In this document: positions 8,235 to 15,333 of the stretch, piece by piece
Layout of the letters: every line of letters starts with the position of its first letter
Position numbering within the stretch: position 1 is the stretch's first letter
Assembly (NCBI GenBank): GCA_036165695.1
Contig: JAYZIH010000019.1
Coordinates: 1-39,066 of the forward strand
Length of the DNA stretch: 39,066 nucleotides
DNA from: Pseudomonadota bacterium
GTDB taxonomy: Bacteria; Pseudomonadota; Gammaproteobacteria; Poriferisulfidales; GCA-002705445
Direction of reading: 5' to 3'
Program-made: the position numbers and the translations under genes
The notes under the pieces: generated by a model
The model's database searches: none
Seen by the model: only the letters and a program-made list of their open reading frames with translations
Told to the model about the DNA's origin: nothing

Positions 8235-8672
8235 TTAAAAACCTGCTATCTCAAGTAGCTTCTTTGATTTTTCTATATCCTTCTCTACTAATTTTCCTTC
8301 TTCATAGATCATAGCAAGAGTAGTTAGTGAGCCTGCAAGTCCTTGCTCTGCAGCTTTTGTGAACCAATAAACCGCTTGCTCACCATTTTTTTCAACACAA
8401 TCACCTTCCATAAACATAAAACCTAAACCGTGTTGGGCTAGAGCATGACCATTCTCTGCAGCCTTTTTCATCCATTTGTATGCAAGAAGGGGGTTTTCTT
8501 TATTACCTAGACCATTCTGATACATTATTGCACATCTATGTTGTGCTTCAGTATTACCATCTTCTGCTAAAGGCGAAAGGAGCTGCATAGCTCTTGAAAA
8601 GTGTTTTGCCTCAAAAGCCTGTAAACCACTATTTAATTCAACATCTTTTTTTTTCACAATATTACTACCCAT
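8235..8672 (-). CDS. Sel1-repeat (TPR-like) protein
   Basis: 145 aa with three or four Sel1-type repeats (A..W..KAAE.G...AQ..LG.MY..G). Confidence 0.8.
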   Translation of the reverse strand: MGSNIVKKKDVELNSGLQAFEAKHFSRAMQLLSPLAEDGNTEAQHRCAIMYQNGLGNKENPLLAYKWMKKAAENGHALAQHGLGFMFMEGDCVEKNGEQAVYWFTKAAEQGLAGSLTTLAMIYEEGKLVEKDIEKSKKLLEIAGF

Positions 8673-8746
8673 TAGCTATATATATATTTAGACAAGTATA
8701 TGCATATAATATATCAATTGTAAATTTCTCATATGGGGGATTAATT

Positions 8747-9841
8747 TTGTCAAAGGACATATTGAGAAGCACTATTCAAAAAGTTGCAACTGGTCCCGAG
8801 TATAGTAAGGACATTGATGTCAAAGAAAGCTATGAAGCAATGCTAAACATACTCGATGAAAATGTTGACCCTGTTCAGGCAGCAATTTATTTAATTGCAT
8901 TACGCATGAAAAGAGAAACTTTGGATGAAAACACTGGATCACTTAAAGCTATTTTAGATAAATCTATTATTACAACTGTTGATGTTGATGAGATTGTTGA
9001 TTTAGCTGAACCTTATAATGGTTTTTCTAGAAATACTCCGGTATCACCTTTTTTACCAGCTATATTAGCATCGGTTGGATTGGCAACAGTAACTCATGGC
9101 GTAACGACTGTTGGACCTAAATTTGGATTAACTCATAGAAAAATACTAGAAAAACTTGGTGTTAACGTCAATAAGGACCCTAATGCAGTTAGTAAAGATC
9201 TTTGTACGCCTGAAATTTCTTGGGCATACATTGATCAAAGTAATTTCTGTAAATCTTTATATGGTTTGATTGATATGAGAACACGCATGGTCAAAAGAAC
9301 TGTAATTACAACTGTTGAAGTTTTAGTTGGCCCTATAAGAGGGAAAAACAAGACTCACTTAGTTACTGGGTACGTTCATCCAGCATACCCCCCAGTTTAT
9401 TTACATTTAGCAGATATATCAGGCTTTGATACAGCAACACTCATTAAAGGAGTTGAAGGTGGAATTACGCCTCCGTTAAGGCAAGATACAAAAGTATATA
9501 CATATAATAATGACAAAAAGCTAGAAATTGTCTTTAACCCAAAAGATATTGGAATAGAACAAAATGCTAGAGCCGTCCTATTACCAGAGCTTTCAAAAAA
9601 CTCTGCTTCGTTAGATGAAATATCTAGCGAAATTAATATTGAAGAATTTGCTGAAAAAGCTGCTTCAATAGGATATGAAGCATTAAATGGGAAAGATGGC
9701 ATCGCAAAAGACTCTCTAATTTATGCTAGTTCAATTATTTATAGCGTTGTTAGGTCAGTAAATTTTTCAGATTCGGCAAAGTTAATAAGAAAGTCGATAG
9801 ATAGCGGAAAAGCAAAAGAATTTTTTTCTAATGCGATATGA
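8747..9841 (+). CDS. TrpD2/YbiB-family protein (anthranilate phosphoribosyltransferase-like fold, probable nucleic-acid binding)
   Basis: Pattern similarity to E. coli YbiB as recalled: ALRMK.E, EPYNGFSRN compared with PSYNGARKQ, and VTHGV compared with VVHGV. The TrpD catalytic motifs GTGGD and KHGNR are absent. I moved the start to TTG 8747 (GGGGGA SD at 8735-8740) because the tracked ORF start at 8594 overlaps the opposite-strand Sel1 gene. Confidence 0.6.
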   Translation: MSKDILRSTIQKVATGPEYSKDIDVKESYEAMLNILDENVDPVQAAIYLIALRMKRETLDENTGSLKAILDKSIITTVDVDEIVDLAEPYNGFSRNTPVSPFLPAILASVGLATVTHGVTTVGPKFGLTHRKILEKLGVNVNKDPNAVSKDLCTPEISWAYIDQSNFCKSLYGLIDMRTRMVKRTVITTVEVLVGPIRGKNKTHLVTGYVHPAYPPVYLHLADISGFDTATLIKGVEGGITPPLRQDTKVYTYNNDKKLEIVFNPKDIGIEQNARAVLLPELSKNSASLDEISSEINIEEFAEKAASIGYEALNGKDGIAKDSLIYASSIIYSVVRSVNFSDSAKLIRKSIDSGKAKEFFSNAI

Positions 9842-9881: not shown

Positions 9882-10076
9882 ATGGACGATATATATAGAG
9901 AAGCAACTACAAAAATGGAAGAGCTTGGTATTCAGGACGAATATATAATAGGATGGCAGGGAGGTTATTTAGGCCATCCTGAAAGAGAAGAAACAAGAGC
10001 CACTGATGCGTATGAAGCGGGTTACGAGGATGGAAAGAATAAAGACTTAAACAATCTTGATAAATGGAAAAAGTGA
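9882..10076 (+). CDS. hypothetical small acidic protein
   Basis: 64 aa ORF with SD-like AAGGGAG upstream. No recognisable family. Confidence 0.35.
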   Translation: MDDIYREATTKMEELGIQDEYIIGWQGGYLGHPEREETRATDAYEAGYEDGKNKDLNNLDKWKK

Positions 10077-10079
10077 TAT

Positions 10080-10634
10080 CTACTTTTTAACAAGCGACTT
10101 TATAGCTGTTTTTAAAGGTTGCATCATTTTTGGTACTTCTGAATCAATAACATACATTCGTATCCAGTTGTTATCTAGATTCCCCATAACATTCATCAAA
10201 TGATTTCCTAATATAATTTTTGTTTTATAGTTTGGTTCCATGTCATATGGAAACTCACTATATTCTTCTAACCTCTCGTTAAGCTTTTCAATGAAAGAAA
10301 TTCTTTCATCTACGTCCTTTATTTTTAGCTCTTGTTTATTAGAGGTAATCGTATCACTTATTTTTTTAGCAATATCAGTAATATAAGTAAGTTTTTTATC
10401 ATCTGGTAGATTGATAAGTTCATTACTAGCTACATAAATTAAAAAACATGAAACTTCTTCAAGCACATTAAATCTATCTTCCCAAGTACTTGTTTCAAAA
10501 CCCTCATTTTCTAGACTAAGCAAAGTTTTTTGAGATATTTTCCAGATATTTACAGCAACAGCACCAGCAATTTGATCTATTTGTCTAGTTTTATCTTTTT
10601 GATTCCAACCAGTATGTATTCTTTGTATACTCAT
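10080..10634 (-). CDS. hypothetical protein
   Basis: 184 aa ORF, predicted soluble and helical by eye. No motif I can assign. Convergent with the 64 aa ORF (3 nt apart). Confidence 0.5.
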   Translation of the reverse strand: MSIQRIHTGWNQKDKTRQIDQIAGAVAVNIWKISQKTLLSLENEGFETSTWEDRFNVLEEVSCFLIYVASNELINLPDDKKLTYITDIAKKISDTITSNKQELKIKDVDERISFIEKLNERLEEYSEFPYDMEPNYKTKIILGNHLMNVMGNLDNNWIRMYVIDSEVPKMMQPLKTAIKSLVKK

Positions 10635-10683: not shown

Positions 10684-11256
10684 ATGAAAGAATTAAAATC
10701 AGATAGCTTTATCTATGAATTTCCTAATATTATATCAAAAGAGATATGTGAAGACATTATTAAGAGATTTGAAAAAGACAAAGTAAACCATTATCGAGGA
10801 AGAATTGGACAGAAACTTGATGAGGATTTAGATATAAAGAGATCAACAGATTTATTTATTAGTGGAAAAGATGAATGGAAGGATGTAGACCAGATATTTT
10901 TTGATGCTTTAAAGAAAGCTATGATAGAAATAAAAAATAAAATAGATTTTTTTAATGGTCCCTTTAAAGACATGGGATATGCTATACAGAGAACAGATAA
11001 AGAAGAATTTTATCACTGGCATATTGATGGAGGTAGCCATGAATTTAGTTATAGACAATTAGTTGCAATCTTTTATTTAAATACATTAAGTGATGAAGAT
11101 GGTGGTACAACGGAATTTTTTCATCAAAAGATTAATGTCAAACCCGAGGTCGGAAAATTAATTTTATTTCCACCATTTTGGACTCATAAGCATAGGGGAC
11201 GCAAAGTAGAATTGGGAAAAAAATATATTGCTACTACATGGATAGTATTTGCTTAA
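10684..11256 (+). CDS. 2OG-Fe(II) oxygenase, prolyl-4-hydroxylase-like
   Basis: 190 aa with the H-x-D iron motif HWHIDG and a distal His in WTHKHRG. GGTTEF and LILFP strands are typical of the P4H-type double-stranded beta-helix. Confidence 0.75.
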   Translation: MKELKSDSFIYEFPNIISKEICEDIIKRFEKDKVNHYRGRIGQKLDEDLDIKRSTDLFISGKDEWKDVDQIFFDALKKAMIEIKNKIDFFNGPFKDMGYAIQRTDKEEFYHWHIDGGSHEFSYRQLVAIFYLNTLSDEDGGTTEFFHQKINVKPEVGKLILFPPFWTHKHRGRKVELGKKYIATTWIVFA

Positions 11257-11257
11257 T

Positions 11258-11581
11258 TTATTCTAAGAATATAGTATCTTGCATATTACCAGCAGTATCT
11301 ATATCAATACTTTTAGTTTTTGGCAGATGATAAATTATATATGCTGCCATCATTATTGCTGTTTCTTTTCTTCCATTGTGGATAGAGGTAAATAATCTTT
11401 CAGCTGCAATTTGACATTTTTGTAATTGATTAGGTTTTTCAACCCAAATTTGCCCCATTTGCCATCCCTTCTCCATATCAACATCCATTTTCTTGAAAAA
11501 ATCTACACCTTCTTCAATAATTAGTGGCTTAATTTTAAGGGGATATGAATTATTACCTAGAATAATTTTTAATTCATACAT
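11258..11581 (-). CDS. hypothetical protein (last gene of the dsrA-divergent operon)
   Basis: 107 aa ORF, 6 nt downstream of the 65 aa ORF on the same strand. No recognisable family. Confidence 0.5.
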   Translation of the reverse strand: MYELKIILGNNSYPLKIKPLIIEEGVDFFKKMDVDMEKGWQMGQIWVEKPNQLQKCQIAAERLFTSIHNGRKETAIMMAAYIIYHLPKTKSIDIDTAGNMQDTIFLE

Positions 11582-11587
11582 TTAGAA

Positions 11588-11785
11588 TTATTTATTTGAT
11601 CCTTTTTCTTTATGGGCAAGATCAACCACTTCCATTGCAGTGTCCCTATATTCTTCTCTGAAATTCGACAGACTCGATCCTTCTTTTGGAGCAAAGTATT
11701 CCTCAGGCTCCACACCTACTCTATCTAATTCAATGAACTTCTTTTGCATCTCGAGAAGCTTTTTAATTTTTTCTTTTTTATCCAT
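11588..11785 (-). CDS. hypothetical small charged protein
   Basis: 65 aa ORF, lysine/glutamate rich, 55 nt downstream of the DsrC-like gene. No obvious SD. Confidence 0.4.
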   Translation of the reverse strand: MDKKEKIKKLLEMQKKFIELDRVGVEPEEYFAPKEGSSLSNFREEYRDTAMEVVDLAHKEKGSNK

Positions 11786-11840
11786 TTGAATATTTTAACT
11801 TAATTATTTTAAAAAAGAACTATCTCATATTGAGTAGGAG

Positions 11841-12179
11841 CTAGTATCCACCTTTTCTTCTACTTTCAGGTAATCCAGATATCCTTCCGCCTTGTTTGCT
11901 TGGGTCACCTGGGAAAAGATCATATAGTACTTTAGCATCAATCTTCTCTCCCCATAATTTCTCAAAGTATTTAACGAGTTTCCTAGTATTAGGTTGATTC
12001 CCTGCATTATTAAAAAACTCATCTCTGAGATGGTTGATAACATCCCAATGTTTTGATGTTAATTCTAAACCTTCAGAGCTAGCTATATGTTTAGCTAATC
12101 CTTCACTCCAGTCTTCAGCATTAACTAGATATCCCATTTGAGTAGTTTCAATTTCTTTTCCATCAAAATCAATTGCCAT
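11841..12179 (-). CDS. DsrC/TusE-family protein lacking both conserved C-terminal cysteines (RspA-like)
   Basis: The 112 aa protein aligns over its whole length with the bona fide DsrC at 17627-17959 (GYL.N..DW..GLA, HW.VIN.LR, LY.LFP, GLP). Its C-terminal arm reads KQGGRISGLPESRRKGGY where DsrC reads KQACKYAGLPKPTGCV. A strong SD, GAGGTG, lies 5 nt upstream of the ATG. Confidence 0.85.
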   Translation of the reverse strand: MAIDFDGKEIETTQMGYLVNAEDWSEGLAKHIASSEGLELTSKHWDVINHLRDEFFNNAGNQPNTRKLVKYFEKLWGEKIDAKVLYDLFPGDPSKQGGRISGLPESRRKGGY

Positions 12180-12187
12180 AATTCACC

Positions 12188-12871
12188 TCATTCATCCCTT
12201 TCTTTTGCAACTGCTACTGCCGCAATGCTTTTATAGGGTAAAAAGATACCACAACCAAATAATTTTCCAATACCTAATCCTATTTCCTGTAATTTAATTG
12301 AATCTTGTGGGGACATTTCAGTAATTAATAAGGTACATGTTTTATAGGTAGTTTTAGATGTTTTTACATTATATGATTTACCACACATCATTTTTTTTAC
12401 ATGGATACCTAACTTCTCAATATCACTTTTAACAGATTCTAAAAACTGATCTTCAGTTTTGCTTATATCCATAATTAGATATCTACAAAAAAGTGTATCT
12501 GATACAGTTAGTTTTTTAACATTTGGCTTGCTTAACTTAACAGAATATTTTCCAACTGGAAGAGTTTTATTATCCAATTCTTTTATAAGCTCGATATGTT
12601 TATTCAGTGACCTAATAGTTAATCTTGCCCTTTTTGATAAATAAATCTCATCCTTAGGTCTTTCCCAGCCAGCCCCAGATGAGGAGCCATGAATTGTATG
12701 TATGGCTAGATTATCAATTGATTCTATACTTGGAATAATTTCTTTAATTGATATGAATAAATCGTAAGCATGGTCAGCAGAAATTTTTTTACAATCAACA
12801 TGAAAGGCTATATCAATTGTATTAGATTCAATTTTGATATCTTCATCTTCCTCTGTTTCTTCCCAATACAT
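12188..12871 (-). CDS. Cas6/Cmx6-like RAMP-fold protein (orphan, no CRISPR context)
   Basis: The 227 aa sequence reads by eye as two beta-alpha-beta-beta-alpha-beta lobes. Near the C-terminus, GLGIGKLFGCG fits the Cas6 glycine-rich loop pattern GhGxxxxxGhG, including a basic residue. The N-terminal IDIAFHVDC..ISADHAYDL resembles Cmx6-type sequences as I recall them. Confidence 0.6.
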   Translation of the reverse strand: MYWEETEEDEDIKIESNTIDIAFHVDCKKISADHAYDLFISIKEIIPSIESIDNLAIHTIHGSSSGAGWERPKDEIYLSKRARLTIRSLNKHIELIKELDNKTLPVGKYSVKLSKPNVKKLTVSDTLFCRYLIMDISKTEDQFLESVKSDIEKLGIHVKKMMCGKSYNVKTSKTTYKTCTLLITEMSPQDSIKLQEIGLGIGKLFGCGIFLPYKSIAAVAVAKERDE

Positions 12872-12877
12872 AATAAT

Positions 12878-13063
12878 TTATGGTGACGTGAATAAGTTTT
12901 CTAAATCTGATTCATAATTATCCGGAGTATCATCAAAAGGAGGCTTTATATCAATTGATAAAAAAATTTCTCCGTCTTTAATTTTATCTTTTATAAACTT
13001 CTTAAGAGATTTATAGGAGTCGATCTTATGCTCTGCAATTAATATTTCACTAATTACTAGCAT
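12878..13063 (-). CDS. hypothetical small protein with acidic tail
   Basis: 61 aa ORF. Its start overlaps the TauD-like gene by 14 nt and its stop lies 6 nt upstream of the Cas6-like start. No recognisable family. Confidence 0.35.
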   Translation of the reverse strand: MLVISEILIAEHKIDSYKSLKKFIKDKIKDGEIFLSIDIKPPFDDTPDNYESDLENLFTSP

Positions 13064-13916
13064 TATTGAAAATTCTGTTTTTAAATCTTATTCTATACAA
13101 TAATCTTTCTTCATTGCTGTCAGAAAATGCTTCTCTTTTATGTAAAATATTATTTGCAATAAATCCTTCATTTTTGTTTAACAAGGTTTTTAATTTAAAT
13201 TGGTTATCATCTTCCAAAAATTCTTTAATAAATGTAGTTATTTGCTTAGTCATTTTATCATTTTTCCACATAATATTTCTTTCTCTCATTGTATAGCGCA
13301 AATGGATTTCATTTTGATTGTCAATTTTAAATACTGGCCCAACTACATCTTGACTATTTTCGACATTATCGTCTTTTGGTATCGTCATAACATCGTTTTC
13401 CATTAGAAAATTAATAAAGTTTGTATTTTTATCTCTTAATGCAATATATAGCATTTCATGATCTAGTACTATATTTTCTCCACCTTTAGTTGCTGGATTC
13501 ACACAATGTAATATAAAAGATTTTATAGAAAATAAATTATGATTATAGTAGCCATCTGTATGCCAATTTAACTCCTTGTTTGTATAAGGTATATATTTAC
13601 TAAATTTTCCTCCATCATCTTGATTTTTGATTTCAGATATACCTTGAGAGTCTGAGTTTGGGTTGTGAATAATATCTATTAAGTTTAGCTGGCTGCACAG
13701 CAAGAGGACATCTTCTTTCTTTACCTCATTTTCGTGACTATAAAAAACGTAATTGTACATTTGAGAGACGGTCTTTAACCTTACTAATTCCTTAGACTTT
13801 AGCGCTCCTATGTCATTGATTTTAATCTTAATTTCATTAGGATTTATTGGATAATACGAGAGTTTTTGCTTTTTCCATACCTCGTAATCAGAGTTATTTT
13901 CTAGATTGGCTAACAT
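13050..13916 (-). CDS. TauD/TfdA-family Fe(II)/2-oxoglutarate dioxygenase-like protein
   Basis: 288 aa with the H-x-D motif in NWHTDGYY, a GGEN segment, and a distal His in NNILHKRE followed by Arg residues. The length fits the family. Confidence 0.75.
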   Translation of the reverse strand: MLANLENNSDYEVWKKQKLSYYPINPNEIKIKINDIGALKSKELVRLKTVSQMYNYVFYSHENEVKKEDVLLLCSQLNLIDIIHNPNSDSQGISEIKNQDDGGKFSKYIPYTNKELNWHTDGYYNHNLFSIKSFILHCVNPATKGGENIVLDHEMLYIALRDKNTNFINFLMENDVMTIPKDDNVENSQDVVGPVFKIDNQNEIHLRYTMRERNIMWKNDKMTKQITTFIKEFLEDDNQFKLKTLLNKNEGFIANNILHKREAFSDSNEERLLYRIRFKNRIFNNASN

Positions 13917-13952
13917 TTGTTAGAATCTACTAATACTCCAGCAAGAAAGGGA

Positions 13953-13968
13953 TACCCCTTATGGGATA
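13953..13968. promoter_or_regulatory. 7-2-7 inverted repeat TACCCCT-TA-TGGGATA, candidate NarL/LuxR-family operator
   Basis: The left half fits the E. coli NarL heptamer TACYYMT exactly. The right half is its inverted copy at 5/7. It is a G+C-rich island inside the AT-rich 148 bp dsrA/TauD-like divergent intergenic region. Confidence 0.3.
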
Positions 13969-14011
13969 TGACCTTACACCCCAATAGAGCTGTGTTTAAT
14001 AGGCCTAATAA

Positions 14012-14040
14012 TGCATAAAATTACGCTATATAGTTATAAT
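14012..14040 (+). promoter_or_regulatory. candidate sigma70-type dsrA promoter
   Basis: Perfect -10 TATAAT at 14035-14040. The -35 is weak (TGCATA at 14012-14017, 17 nt spacer). SD GGGGAGA at 14051-14057 precedes ATG 14065. Confidence 0.3.
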
Positions 14041-14064: not shown

Positions 14065-15333
14065 ATGGCAGAAAAACAAAAACATCCAACACCAATGCTT
14101 GATGAGCTTGAACACGGCCCATGGCCAAGCTTCATATCAGGCATTAAGAGACTCAGAGACAAACATAAGGATAAACGTGTGCAAGGGGTAGCAAACGACT
14201 TATTAGGACAACTTGAACACTCATATGAAACACGTAAAGGATATTGGAAAGGGGGAACAGTTAGTGTGTTTGGATATGGAAGTGGAATTATTCCAAGATT
14301 TTCAGAAGTAGGTTCATCATTCCCAGATTCTAAAGAATTTCACACACTTAGAGTACAACCGCCAGCAGGAAACTATTATACAACTGACATGTTAAGACAA
14401 CTTGGAGAGAGTTGGGAGAAGCATGGTTCAGGTTTATCAACATTTCATGGACAAACAGGCAACATAATGTTTATTGGAACTTCAACAGAAGGAACACAAC
14501 ATTTCTTTGATGAAATAAATGAATATGGTTGGGATTTAGGTGGAGCAGGACCATGTGTAAGAACTGGCATGTGTTGTGTGGGTGCTGCTAGATGTGAGCA
14601 GTCTAACTTAGATGAAATAAAGATTCATAGAACCTTGCTTAATAATTTTACTGATGATGTGCATAGACCAGCATTACCATATAAATTTAAATTCAAAGTT
14701 TCTGGGTGCCCAAATGATTGTGTTAACTCTATAGAAAGAGCAGATTTTTCAATTATTGGAACCTGGAAAGATGATATGCAAGTTAGTCAAGAAAAAGTTA
14801 AAGAGTTTGTAGAAAAAAAGGGAAGAAAGTATGTAATTGATAACGTAATTACAAGATGCCCAACTAATTGCTTATCTTTAGAAGACGATGATTCACTTAG
14901 TGTTGATAATAAAAACTGTGTGAGATGTATGCATTGTTTAAATGTTATGCCTGAAGCTTTAAGTCCAGGAAAAGATAAAGGCGCAACTATTTTAATGGGC
15001 GGAAAAAGAACTTTAAAAGTTGGAGACCTAATGGGTACTGTTATCGTCCCATTTATGAAGTTAGATAACGAAGAGGATTATGAAAAATTGGTAGAACTTG
15101 CTGAAGAAACTATAGATTTTTGGGCAGAAAATGGATTAGAACAGGAAAGATGTGGAGAGATGATTGAGCGTATTGGACTAGTAAATTTCTTAGAAGGTAT
15201 CGGTATGGAAGTTGATCCTACTATGGTTAATGACCCTACAACAAGCTCCTACATTAGAATGGACGGATGGGACGAGGAAGCTGAGAAGTGGTTTAAAGAA
15301 AGACTAAAACAGCCAGAAGCTGCAGCAAATTAA
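14065..15333 (+). CDS. dsrA: dissimilatory sulfite reductase alpha subunit (oxidative/reverse type)
   Basis: 422 aa with a siroheme/[4Fe-4S] Cys cluster (CVRTGMCCVGAARC) and a ferredoxin insert (CPNDC, CVRCMHC). dsrB and dsrEFH follow. Confidence 0.97.
   Translation: MAEKQKHPTPMLDELEHGPWPSFISGIKRLRDKHKDKRVQGVANDLLGQLEHSYETRKGYWKGGTVSVFGYGSGIIPRFSEVGSSFPDSKEFHTLRVQPPAGNYYTTDMLRQLGESWEKHGSGLSTFHGQTGNIMFIGTSTEGTQHFFDEINEYGWDLGGAGPCVRTGMCCVGAARCEQSNLDEIKIHRTLLNNFTDDVHRPALPYKFKFKVSGCPNDCVNSIERADFSIIGTWKDDMQVSQEKVKEFVEKKGRKYVIDNVITRCPTNCLSLEDDDSLSVDNKNCVRCMHCLNVMPEALSPGKDKGATILMGGKRTLKVGDLMGTVIVPFMKLDNEEDYEKLVELAEETIDFWAENGLEQERCGEMIERIGLVNFLEGIGMEVDPTMVNDPTTSSYIRMDGWDEEAEKWFKERLKQPEAAAN

What the first reader, a model, noticed from the sequence alone, without database searches (positions are those of the whole stretch)
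11258..13916. Six-gene operon divergent from dsrA: TauD-type dioxygenase, orphan Cas6/Cmx6-like RAMP protein, cysteine-less DsrC paralogue and three unplaceable small proteins
Seen in sequence: six same-strand ORFs run from 13916 to 11258 with junctions of -14, 6, 8, 55 and 6 nt, which looks like an operon. The first gene starts 148 bp from dsrA on the opposite strand, so the two units share one control region. The content is as follows. (i) A 288 aa TauD/TfdA-like Fe(II)/2OG dioxygenase (WHTDG). (ii) A 61 aa protein with an acidic tail. (iii) A 227 aa two-lobe protein with an exact Cas6 glycine-rich loop. (iv) A 112 aa DsrC-fold protein lacking both redox cysteines, with the strongest SD of the set. 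(v, vi) 65 aa and 107 aa proteins I cannot place. The window has no CRISPR array and no other cas gene, and the DsrC-like protein has no sulfur-carrying cysteine. Established knowledge: Cas6 proteins are RNA-binding or RNA-cleaving RAMPs. DsrC carries an HTH-like motif, and cysteine-less relatives have been proposed to be regulatory (the RspA group). Inference: neither borrowed component can perform its textbook role here. The module may therefore be a repurposed nucleic-acid-binding or processing unit, or a protein-modifying unit, functionally tied to dsr expression or sulfur oxidation. I vaguely recall automated annotations placing Cas6/Cmx6 next to DsrC-family and TauD-family genes in other CRISPR-less proteobacteria, but I cannot verify this and know of no experimentally defined function.
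Basis: partly seen in the sequence, partly recalled or inferred. Interest (0 to 1): 0.85.

Follow-up and report, generated by a model that had tools for sequence, protein, structure and literature searches.

The report
Orphan Cas6 module beside dsrAB
Next to the key sulfur-oxidation genes (dsrAB) sits a conserved gene set containing a true Cas6 CRISPR-type RNA-binding protein with no CRISPR system, a cysteine-less copy of the sulfur carrier DsrC and several unknown small proteins; the same set occurs in hundreds of sulfur-oxidising bacteria and its function is unknown.

Summary
Six minus-strand genes (13916-11258) have exactly the stated junctions and start 148 bp from dsrA.

- **Identities hold.** They are a TauD-family oxygenase, a Cas6/Cmx6 protein, a DsrC-fold protein lacking both cysteines, and three proteins matching no family.
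  - For Cas6/Cmx6, Pfam gives E 1e-50 and the AlphaFold model superposes on the type I-B Cas6 8FCJ_B at TM 0.8.
- **No CRISPR context.** The window and 80 related loci (±10 kb) hold no CRISPR array and no other cas gene. The nearest true Cmx6 proteins all head complete type I-B operons.
- **The cluster is widespread.** Cas6-like relatives were found in at least 575 species genomes of sulfur-oxidising Gammaproteobacteria. In the 80 best loci the 61-aa protein is adjacent in 91%, the DsrC-like gene in 86%, TauD in 81% and a divergent dsrA in 87%.
- **New: shared control sites.** A conserved palindrome, TATCCC-N4-GGGATA, belongs to a fixed dsrA promoter layout. A related site precedes the 65-aa gene, so the unit is co-regulated with dsr but is not always one operon.
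- **Prior knowledge.** Only the TauD-like gene has a name (dsrQ, Lenk 2012), and its function is untested.
- **Likely role.** This is probably a regulatory or accessory module of the oxidative Dsr pathway built around an exapted Cas6. The mechanism is inferred, not shown.

The parts
13050..13916 (-). dsrQ-type TauD/TfdA-family Fe(II)/2-oxoglutarate oxygenase (288 aa), with the H119-x-D121...H259 motif
   Evidence: PF02668 at E 3e-14. The nearest solved relative is TmpA 6NPB, only weakly (E 0.007). It lies upstream of the Cas6-like gene in 56 of 69 loci. A tauD-like gene divergent from dsrA was named dsrQ (PMC7596348).
12878..13063 (-). 61-aa acidic protein (median pI 4.5) with the invariant motif D-[VI]-K-P-P-F-x-D-T-P-x-x-W-E; the tightest partner of the Cas6-like gene
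   Evidence: It lies directly upstream of the Cas6-like gene in 71 of 78 loci, with a median gap of 30 nt. Conservation is shown. It has no Pfam or PDB match.
12188..12871 (-). Orphan Cas6 (Cmx6/type I-B family) protein, 227 aa. It keeps H34, R87, R130, the S191-x3-Q195 helix and the G-rich loop. It has orphan-specific additions: an acidic MxWEE N-tail, an SGNGWxRP insertion and a KKMxCG motif.
   Evidence: PF09559 at E 1e-50 and TIGR02807 above its cut-off. The AF2 model has pLDDT 85. Foldseek matches 8FCJ_B at TM 0.79/0.83 and rmsd 1.8. The profile against PDB gives E 6e-43. No cas genes or arrays lie nearby.
11841..12179 (-). Cys-less DsrC/TusE-fold paralogue (112 aa, RspA-like). Both cysteines are replaced by Gly, and the C-terminus ...GLPESRRKGGY is invariant.
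   Evidence: PF04358 at E 3e-30. The best PDB hit is A. vinosum DsrC 1YX3 at E 8e-21. RKGGY is the C-terminus in all 66 orthologues read. It lies downstream of the Cas6-like gene in 63 of 73 loci. Identity to SUP05-type relatives is 78-87%, as high as DsrC itself.
11588..11785 (-). 65-aa predicted-helical protein of unknown family, with conserved MQKKF and AH-x-E-x-GS motifs
   Evidence: It is present downstream in 43 of 70 loci. Conservation is shown. It has no Pfam or PDB match.
11258..11581 (-). 107-aa acidic protein of unknown family, with invariant G39-W-Q-M and C56-Q-I
   Evidence: The family has 2134 clusters, all named 'hypothetical', with no Pfam domain. The AF2 model has pLDDT 92 and pTM 0.85, but no PDB fold match (best E 0.2). 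It is present in 35 of 62 loci.
13953..13968 (.). Distal operator palindrome TACCCCTTATGGGATA (consensus TATCCC-N4-GGGATA) in the dsrA/dsrQ divergent region
   Evidence: At one mismatch or fewer, 33 of 38 matches in 1.32 Mb of loci fall in the 26.5 kb upstream of dsrA. A -10-like hexamer lies at a fixed offset of +55 to +58 toward dsrA in 36 of 37 sequences.
13977..13994 (+). Proximal dsrA-promoter site (window CACCCCAATAGAGCTGT; consensus CACCCCA-N3/4-(T)AGGGATT), followed by the -10 candidate TAAAAT at 14016-14021
   Evidence: The conserved layout across 37 sequences is shown. In the window the site lies about 10 bp closer to the palindrome than in other loci.
11821..11834 (-). Degenerate copy (CTCAATATGAGATA) of the same site type, between the DsrC-like gene and the 65-aa gene
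   Evidence: In 37 sequences a (C)CC-N4-GGG(A)ATA element lies 49-145 nt upstream of the 65-aa gene, mostly 71-113 nt. In 26 of 37 sequences a -10-like hexamer follows at +23 to +25.

Best explanation
**What is shown.** This is a conserved accessory unit of the oxidative (reverse) Dsr sulfur-oxidation system of Gammaproteobacteria. It is not a CRISPR-Cas remnant.
- The core is a 61-aa acidic protein, an orphan Cas6 and a Cys-less DsrC paralogue.
- The usual companions are the oxygenase DsrQ (TauD-like), a 65-aa protein and a 107-aa protein.
- The same operator type (TATCCC-N4-GGGATA) occurs in the dsrA promoter and upstream of the 65-aa gene, which points to co-regulation with dsrAB.

**What is inferred.**
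- The Cas6-like protein keeps the basic RAMP core, the conserved N-terminal histidine and the glycine-rich loop of true Cas6 enzymes. It therefore most likely still binds, and perhaps cuts, a specific RNA stem-loop that is not a CRISPR repeat.
- The acidic 61-aa protein, and the acidic N-terminal tail added to the orphan Cas6, act as its partner or inhibitor.
- The DsrC paralogue keeps the flexible C-terminal arm but ends in RKGGY instead of the redox cysteines. It acts as a non-redox adaptor that docks to a partner of DsrC or to the Cas6 unit.
- Together they tune the expression or activity of the Dsr pathway. DsrQ adds an oxygen-dependent input in aerobic lineages.
For: - **The genes are real and conserved in order.** They lie divergent from dsrA in at least 575 species genomes, of which 80 loci were read.
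- **Cas6 membership and fold** are supported.
- **Functional residues are retained.** H34, R87, R130, S191, Q195 and the G-loop are invariant across orphan and true Cmx6 proteins. The orphan core has pI about 8.5, like true Cmx6 at 8.8, and the acidity comes from an added N-tail.
- **There is no CRISPR context.** No cas genes or arrays occur in 80 loci or the window. By contrast, all 5 true Cmx6 relatives looked up head type I-B cas operons, and arrays were seen in three of those five contexts.
- **The DsrC paralogue is under strong constraint.** Identity is 78-87% where the Cas6-like protein is about 51-57%, and the RKGGY end is invariant.
- **Operator and promoter layout** is shared between dsrA and the 65-aa gene.
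- **TauD is absent in Chromatiaceae-type loci** (L063, L068, L071). Lenk's report that dsrQ occurs mostly in aerobic chemotrophs fits this.
- **A neighbour is linked to sulfur oxidation.** An Alvin_2107-family 'globule sulfur oxidation protein' gene lies at 9882-10076 and in 31 of the 56 loci with enough downstream flank.
Against: - No RNA target was found.
  - The one conserved stem-loop-like element proved to be a promoter operator lying upstream of a fixed -10 box.
  - Its mismatch variants show no strand bias (my reading of the variants listed).
  - It does not travel with stand-alone Cas6-like units.
- No experiment or paper bears on the module.
- All the small proteins are acidic, so none looks like a classic DNA-binding factor.
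- DsrD shows that small Dsr-linked proteins with nucleic-acid-binding folds can act purely at the protein level.
- The role of the conserved histidine as a catalytic residue is inferred from its position only.
Confidence: 0.4

Rival explanations
1. The module acts only at the protein level on rDsrAB or its sulfur relay. The Cys-less DsrC paralogue inserts its RKGGY arm where DsrC's arm goes (DsrAB, DsrEFH or DsrK) and acts as an allosteric effector, placeholder or assembly factor. The small acidic proteins and the Cas6 fold serve as scaffolds, and no RNA is involved. The Fe(II)/2OG oxygenases of the island may hydroxylate one of these proteins as an oxygen signal.
For: - The DsrC paralogue is as conserved as DsrC itself and has an invariant C-terminal arm.
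- There is a precedent: DsrD has a wHTH fold but is an allosteric activator of DsrAB (PMC8794893).
- Up to three different Fe(II)/2OG oxygenases recur in the island: TauD-like, a P4H-like gene at 10684-11256, and a PiuC-like gene in 38 loci.
- The 61-aa protein has invariant prolines in its K-P-P-F-x-D-T-P motif.
- All the small proteins are acidic.
Against: - The residues that orphan and true Cas6 proteins share are the ones typical of RNA recognition: the G-rich loop, the basic core and the N-terminal His. Their retention is hard to explain for a pure scaffold.
- No interaction data exist.
- I could not run multimer predictions.
Confidence: 0.25
2. The Cys-less DsrC paralogue is the transcription factor that binds the TATCCC-N4-GGGATA sites, activating dsrA and the 65-aa gene and autoregulating its own operon. 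The other genes are regulon members.
For: - The operator is conserved in the divergent region. One site is centred near -41 and one near -76 relative to a fixed -10, and the same site precedes the 65-aa gene.
- The regulator-like gene is encoded divergently from its presumed target, as in many bacterial regulons.
- The DsrC fold contains an HTH-like motif, and A. vinosum DsrC was reported to bind dsr upstream DNA. I recall this from Grimm et al. 2010, which is not held in the library.
Against: - The protein is acidic (median pI 5.2).
- The HTH-like helix is equally conserved in bona fide DsrC, which is a sulfur carrier.
- The DsrD precedent warns against reading an HTH as DNA binding.
- The stand-alone Cas6-like/DsrC-like unit in L014 lies among housekeeping genes, and the loose motif scan found no operator there.
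Confidence: 0.12
3. The unit is a catabolic side-branch. DsrQ oxygenolytically releases sulfite from a sulfonate, which then feeds the Dsr/sulfite-oxidation pathway, and the other genes are unrelated neighbours.
For: - This is the speculation in the literature for dsrQ (PMC7596348; PMC9371685).
- The TauD-family match has an intact His-Asp-His motif.
Against: - The core that is conserved most tightly lacks any catabolic enzyme, and TauD is the dispensable member: it is absent from 13 of 69 loci.
- No sulfonate transporter or desulfonation partner lies in the cluster.
- Similarity to characterised TauD-family enzymes is very weak (best PDB E 0.007).
Confidence: 0.1
4. The Cas6-like gene is a decaying remnant of a lost CRISPR-Cas system, or the adjacency of the genes is chance.
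For: The gene scores above the curated cas6_cmx6 cut-off and is annotated as such in public records.
Against: - The ORF is intact and has 32 invariant residues across 18 diverse orphans, including orphan-specific motifs.
- It sits in the same gene order in at least 575 species genomes.
- No cas gene or array lies within 10 kb in any of the 80 loci.
Confidence: 0.01

Closest known systems
Cas6 of type I-B / I-MYXAN CRISPR-Cas (Cmx6; solved as chain B of the type I-B CAST Cascade, PDB 8FCJ/8FCU)
   Same: - It belongs to the same Pfam/TIGRFAM family and has the same two-lobe RAMP fold (TM about 0.8, rmsd 1.8).
- It shares the glycine-rich loop, the S-x3-Q helix and conserved arginines.
- The N-terminal His is invariant as in other Cmx6 proteins.
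   Different: - It has no CRISPR array and no cas3, cas8, cas7, cas5, cas4, cas1 or cas2.
- It forms a separate subgroup with an acidic MxWEE N-tail, an SGNGWxRP insertion and a KKMxCG motif, and it lacks an insertion present in true Cmx6.
- Its fixed neighbours are a 61-aa acidic protein, a DsrC paralogue and dsrAB.
DsrC / TusE / RspA family (A. vinosum DsrC, PDB 1YX3)
   Same: It has the same fold and about 40% identity to the DsrC encoded in the same window. The ...GLP... C-terminal arm is retained.
   Different: - Both cysteines are replaced by Gly.
- The arm is two residues longer and ends in an invariant RKGGY.
- It therefore cannot be a sulfur carrier like DsrC or TusE. It fits the 'RspA' description (no cysteines), but that group has no tested function (PMC8477390).
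dsrQ (tauD-like gene divergent from dsrA; Lenk et al. 2012)
   Same: It has the same position and orientation relative to dsrA and the same TauD family.
   Different: The papers I could read mention only the tauD-like gene and a speculative sulfonate role. They do not mention the Cas6-like gene, the DsrC-like gene or the small genes that follow it.
DsrD (small wHTH protein of reductive Dsr systems)
   Same: It is a small accessory protein encoded with dsrAB, with a fold that suggests nucleic-acid binding.
   Different: - It is unrelated in sequence and is found in sulfite reducers, not oxidisers.
- Its function as an allosteric activator of DsrAB has been shown experimentally.

Membership tests
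Cas6 protein family (PF09559 / TIGR02807 Cmx6) | Sequence match above the curated thresholds | tested here: met
   PF09559 scores 172 bits against a cut-off of 26.7. TIGR02807 scores 105.6 bits against 98.85.
Cas6 protein family (PF09559 / TIGR02807 Cmx6) | Double ferredoxin-like (RAMP) fold with a C-terminal glycine-rich loop | tested here: met
   The AF2 model has pLDDT 85. Foldseek gives 8FCJ_B at TM 0.79/0.83, followed by P. furiosus Cas6 and Cse3. The loop GLGIGKLFGCGIF is invariant in its Gly positions.
Cas6 protein family (PF09559 / TIGR02807 Cmx6) | Metal-independent endoribonuclease activity on a repeat stem-loop, with a catalytic His | not testable with these tools
   H34 is invariant in 22 of 22 aligned orphan and true Cmx6 sequences. 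A catalytic role is inferred from its position only, and the solved CAST homologue has Asn at that position.
CRISPR-Cas system (type I-B / I-MYXAN) | A CRISPR array and effector or adaptation cas genes in the locus | tested here: not met
   The window has no array, and the 80 loci have none apart from an unrelated 55-nt repeat at one contig end. tblastn with Cas3, Cas8b, Cas7, Cas5, Cas4/1, Cas2 and WYL found no hit. All 5 true Cmx6 relatives looked up head cas operons, and arrays were detected in three of those five contexts.
DsrC (sulfur-carrying subunit/substrate of DsrAB) | Two conserved cysteines in the C-terminal arm: CysA in the penultimate position and CysB ten residues before it | tested here: not met
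   The alignment to 1YX3 puts Gly at both positions. None of the 66 orthologues has either canonical cysteine.
TusE | The penultimate cysteine that accepts sulfur from TusBCD | tested here: not met
   The C-terminus is RKGGY in every orthologue.
DsrC/TusE/RspA superfamily (PF04358); RspA subgroup | DsrC fold with both cysteines absent | tested here: met
   PF04358 at E 3e-30, with the cysteines absent. The name RspA is used in PMC8477390. The regulatory function implied by the name is untested.
TauD/TfdA Fe(II)/2-oxoglutarate dioxygenases; dsrQ | Family match with the His-x-Asp...His iron ligands | tested here: met
   PF02668 scores 53.9 bits against a cut-off of 27. H119, D121 and H259 align with TmpA.
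TauD/TfdA Fe(II)/2-oxoglutarate dioxygenases; dsrQ | dsrQ: a tauD-like gene directly upstream of dsrA and divergent from it | tested here: met
   The two start codons are 148 bp apart. The same arrangement holds in most loci. The definition is from PMC7596348.
TauD/TfdA Fe(II)/2-oxoglutarate dioxygenases; dsrQ | Sulfonate-dependent sulfite release | not testable with these tools
   This is only a speculation in the literature.

The most novel reading that the evidence does not exclude
The orphan Cas6 is a CRISPR-independent, structure-specific riboregulator, either a binder or an endonuclease. It acts on transcripts of the sulfur-oxidation regulon. The 61-aa acidic protein gates it as a nucleic-acid mimic, and the Cys-less DsrC paralogue couples it to the state of the Dsr sulfur relay. 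This would be the first Cas6 exapted to control a core energy metabolism.
Probability: 0.2. Interest if true: 0.9.

Novelty: new variant of a known kind. Interest (0 to 1): 0.68.

Why it matters
- **For sulfur metabolism.** Dissimilatory sulfite reductase in its oxidative mode drives sulfur oxidation in symbionts, oxygen-minimum-zone bacteria (SUP05) and purple sulfur bacteria. How it is regulated and assembled is poorly known.
- **For CRISPR biology.** A Cas6 protein that has left CRISPR, and that stays beside dsrAB in hundreds of species with a Cys-less DsrC and a dedicated small partner, would be a clear case of a Cas protein exapted for a housekeeping pathway.
- **For experiments.** The finding names a concrete set of candidate regulators or accessory factors. 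The operator and promoter layout found here gives a handle for identifying the transcription factor of the dsr regulon. Everything is directly testable in cultured carriers such as Thioalkalivibrio denitrificans (locus L019).

Tried and rejected
**1. The palindrome as a solo CRISPR-repeat-like hairpin cut by the orphan Cas6: rejected as the main reading.**
- In its favour, it has the same geometry as the repeats of true Cmx6 systems: a 5-6 bp stem, a 4-nt loop and a handle, as in GATGCC-GTAA-GGCGTT-GAGCAC.
- Against it:
  - It lies upstream of a -10 box at a fixed distance toward dsrA.
  - A second, proximal copy lies near -41.
  - Its mismatch variants show no strand bias (my reading of the variants listed).
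  - It is absent beside stand-alone Cas6-like units.

**2. CRISPR remnant: rejected**.

**3. Database searches for the unknown parts gave nothing usable.**
- Rfam found nothing in the window.
- Pfam, NCBIfam and PDB profile searches for the 61-, 65- and 107-aa proteins and the 184-aa neighbour gave nothing significant.
- The AF2 model of the 107-aa protein is confident but has no PDB fold match.

**4. Literature.** Ten searches found no paper linking Cas6/Cmx6 with dsr. Lenk 2012 was looked up under its cited PMC id and is not held. The two Weissgerber papers were tried under ids I recalled from memory and were not found. Grimm 2010 was not looked up, and the searches did not return it.

**5. 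Expression data.** The supplementary tables of a symbiont transcriptome (PMC8269255) held no Cas6 entry.

**6. A fixed -10 box in the dsrQ direction** downstream of the palindrome was not found.

**7. Multimer prediction** (61-aa protein with Cas6-like; DsrC-like with partners) was not possible with the tools and caps.

Full report
**1. Observation**

| Coordinates | Length |
|---|---|
| 13916-13050 | 288 aa |
| 13063-12878 | 61 aa |
| 12871-12188 | 227 aa |
| 12179-11841 | 112 aa |
| 11785-11588 | 65 aa |
| 11581-11258 | 107 aa |

- The junctions are -14, 6, 8, 55 and 6 nt.
- dsrA starts at 14065, 148 bp from the first gene.
- The plus-strand genes that follow are dsrABEFHCMKLJ by NCBIfam.
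- The quoted sequence details are all present: WHTDG, the glycine-rich loop GLGIGKLFGCGIF, the acidic tail of the 61-aa protein, the absence of both DsrC cysteines, and the GAGGTG Shine-Dalgarno before the DsrC-like gene.
- The window has about 33% G+C, no CRISPR-like tandem repeat and no Rfam family.

**2. Identity of the proteins**

- **288-aa protein.** It is a TauD/TfdA-family oxygenase (PF02668, E 3e-14). The iron ligands H119, D121 and H259 align with TmpA, its only, weak, solved relative.
- **227-aa protein.** It is a true Cas6.
  - PF09559 gives E 1e-50, and TIGR02807 (cas6_cmx6) scores above its curated cut-off.
  - A profile of the family finds the type I-B CAST Cas6 8FCJ_B at E 6e-43.
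  - An AlphaFold model (pLDDT 85, pTM 0.81) superposes on 8FCJ_B at TM 0.79/0.83 and rmsd 1.8 Å. Other Cas6 and Cse3 structures follow.
- **112-aa protein.** It has the DsrC fold; the best PDB hit is A. vinosum DsrC 1YX3 at E 8e-21. Glycine sits at both cysteine positions.
- **61-, 65- and 107-aa proteins.** None matches Pfam, NCBIfam or PDB.
  - The 107-aa family has 2134 clusters, all labelled hypothetical.
  - It folds confidently (pLDDT 92) into an alpha+beta structure with no PDB match.

**3. Orphan status of the Cas6**

An alignment of database homologues splits into two groups.

- **The true Cmx6 group.** All five proteins looked up (P0078, P0080, P0086, P0087, P0093) head cas6-cas3-cas8b/DevT-cas7/DevR-cas5-cas4/cas1(-cas2) operons.
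  - Four of the five contexts are complete through cas2. The contig for P0080 shows none.
  - Arrays were detected in the contexts of three of the five proteins. Their repeats form a 5-bp stem, a tetraloop and an 8-nt handle.
- **The orphan group, which includes the window protein.**
  - It has an acidic MxWEE N-tail, an SGNGWxRP insertion and a KKMxCG motif.
  - It keeps H34, R87, R130, S191, Q195 and the G-rich loop, all invariant across both groups.
  - Without the added acidic tail its core has pI about 8.5, like true Cmx6 at 8.8.
- **CRISPR context of the orphans.** In the window and 80 orphan loci with up to 10 kb of flank on each side, tblastn with Cas3, Cas8b, Cas7, Cas5, Cas4/1, Cas2 and WYL finds nothing. 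Tandem Repeats Finder (TRF) finds no CRISPR array.

**4. Conservation of the cluster**

These include Thiothrix- and SUP05-type MAGs, Thioalkalivibrio, Thiohalomonas, Thiomargarita, Parabeggiatoa, Halochromatium and other Chromatiaceae, Ectothiorhodospiraceae and sponge symbionts.

In the best 80 loci, counted only where the flank suffices:

| Neighbour of the Cas6-like gene | Loci |
|---|---|
| 61-aa gene directly upstream (median gap 30 nt) | 71 of 78 |
| DsrC paralogue downstream (median gap 96 nt) | 63 of 73 |
| TauD-like gene upstream | 56 of 69 |
| Divergent dsrA | 53 of 61 |
| 65-aa gene | 43 of 70 |
| 107-aa gene | 35 of 62 |

- **The core** is therefore the 61-aa protein, the Cas6-like protein and the DsrC-like protein.
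- **TauD** is missing in Chromatiaceae-type loci (L063, L068, L071).
- **An extra gene.** An unknown protein of about 275 aa lies between the 61-aa and Cas6-like genes in 21 loci, including those three.
- **Further island members** that the streamlined window lacks:
  - a PiuC-like 2OG oxygenase, in 38 loci;
  - a DUF6866 protein, in 33 loci;
  - a GNAT, in 25 loci.
- **Island members the window keeps**:
  - the P4H-like oxygenase at 10684-11256;
  - the 184-aa protein at 10080-10634;
  - the Alvin_2107-family gene at 9882-10076.
- **Constraint.** The DsrC paralogue is 78-87% identical between the window and SUP05-type relatives, where the Cas6-like protein is 51-57% identical. Every orthologue ends in RKGGY.
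- **Stand-alone units.** The pair 61-aa/Cas6-like (L025, L026, L040) and the pair Cas6-like/DsrC-like (L014) also occur alone. Flanking genes were annotated for L025 and L014 and are housekeeping genes.

**5. Control region (new)**

- **A conserved palindrome.** A 16-bp palindrome, TATCCC-N4-GGGATA, lies in the dsrA/dsrQ intergenic region.
  - With at most one mismatch, 33 of 38 matches in 1.32 Mb fall in the 26.5 kb upstream of dsrA.
  - The window copy is at 13953-13968.
- **Layout toward dsrA.** Reading toward dsrA, the order is: palindrome, 17-19 nt, CACCCCA-N3/4-(T)AGGGATT, about 20 nt, then a -10-like hexamer (TAGACT, TATAGT or TAAACT).
  - The hexamer lies at +55 to +58 from the palindrome in 36 of 37 sequences.
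  - That places the sites near -76 and -41, which is the layout of an activator-dependent promoter (inference).
- **A second site type.** An element of the same kind, (C)CC-N4-GGG(A)ATA, lies 49-145 nt upstream of the 65-aa gene, mostly 71-113 nt. In 26 of 37 sequences a -10-like hexamer follows at +23 to +25.
- **What this implies.**
  - The dsr operon and at least the 65-aa gene share a regulator.
  - The 'six-gene operon' has an internal promoter in most lineages.
  - In the window both elements are present but degenerate and compressed.
- **The hairpin alternative.** I first considered these elements as Cas6 target hairpins. I rejected that for three reasons: their position upstream of the -10 boxes, the lack of strand bias in their variants (my reading), and their absence beside stand-alone Cas6-like units.
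- **Who binds them.** All the small proteins are acidic, so the binding factor is probably encoded elsewhere.

**6. Literature**

- The tauD-like gene divergent from dsrA is called dsrQ. It was noted mostly in aerobic chemotrophic sulfur oxidisers, with a speculative sulfonate-to-sulfite role (PMC7596348; PMC9371685).
- No searchable paper links Cas6/Cmx6 with dsr.
- 'RspA' is used for Cys-less members of the DsrC family, without a tested function.
- DsrD, long taken for a DNA-binding regulator, is an allosteric activator of DsrAB. This is a caution against reading function from fold.

**7. Explanation**

- **Shown:** this is a conserved, dsr-linked and apparently dsr-co-regulated accessory module that contains an exapted Cas6.
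- **Inferred:**
  - The Cas6-like protein still recognises a structured RNA, because the RNA-recognition features it shares with true Cas6 are under constraint.
  - The 61-aa protein is its partner.
  - The DsrC paralogue uses its conserved arm as a non-redox adaptor.
  - DsrQ gives an oxygen-dependent input.
- **Main rival:** a purely protein-level modulation of rDsrAB or the sulfur relay. I cannot exclude it.

**8. Verdict**

- The finding is real and its descriptive part is right.
- It is not fully new, because dsrQ is already named, and the operon boundary is lineage-specific.
- The orphan Cas6, the Cys-less DsrC and the small-protein core beside dsrAB appear undescribed, and their mechanism is open.

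Noticed in passing
window 13949-14040 (+); loci L007-L080 upstream of dsrA: The dsrA promoter has a conserved layout: a distal palindrome TATCCC-N4-GGGATA, a proximal CACCCCA-N3/4-TAGGGATT site, and a -10-like hexamer at a fixed offset in 36 of 37 sequences. The transcription factor that binds it is unknown.
   Followed up: yes
window 11792-11834 (-); DsrC-like to 65-aa gene gaps of 37 loci: A promoter-like element precedes the 65-aa gene and carries the same site type, so the six genes are probably two transcription units in most lineages. In the window the element is degenerate and is followed by a T-run.
   Followed up: yes
window 9882-10076 (+): A 64-aa protein matches NCBIfam NF049856, 'Alvin_2107 family globule sulfur oxidation protein' (E 1e-25). 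The same gene recurs in 33 of the 80 related loci.
   Followed up: partly
window 10684-11256 (+); L018 11884-12573 (-): A second Fe(II)/2OG oxygenase (2OG-FeII_Oxy_3, P4H-like) abuts the cluster. Other genomes add a third (PiuC/PKHD-like, 38 loci). Up to three oxygen-dependent hydroxylases therefore lie beside an otherwise oxygen-independent Dsr pathway.
   Followed up: partly
window 10080-10634 (-): A conserved 184-aa protein of unknown family, present in 39 loci, has a profile that weakly hits the plastid RNA-polymerase-associated protein PAP12/pTAC7 (8QMA_P, E 0.011). This is borderline and unverified.
   Followed up: partly
L063 9164-9991; 20 further loci: An unknown protein of about 275 aa with no Pfam match lies between the 61-aa and Cas6-like genes in 21 loci, including Chromatiaceae-type loci that lack the TauD-like gene.
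   Followed up: partly
L030, L039, L049, L077 (107-aa orthologues): In these four loci the 107-aa protein carries a conserved C-terminal extension of about 85 aa (...VTKVFKVGKGxRFSVxDH...).
   Followed up: no
L021 7571-11135; L066 7409-11135: In these two loci dsrEFHC, with no dsrAB detected within the up to 10 kb fetched on each side, is divergent from the 61-aa/Cas6-like/DsrC-like unit. An operator-like palindrome lies in between.
   Followed up: no
L018, L023, L032, L038, L044, L048, L054 (DsrC-like orthologues): A subgroup of the DsrC paralogues has ...GGCPQSTRKGGY, with a cysteine replacing the Leu of GLP. This is not one of the canonical DsrC cysteine positions.
   Followed up: no
window 8594-9841 (+): A glycosyl-transferase-family-3 (anthranilate phosphoribosyltransferase-like) protein recurs at the far end of the island in 19 loci.
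   Followed up: no
L056 1-243: A 55-nt-period tandem repeat (4.4 copies) lies at a contig end, about 2.7 kb from the 61-aa gene in a Thiotrichaceae MAG. It does not look like a typical CRISPR array.
   Followed up: no
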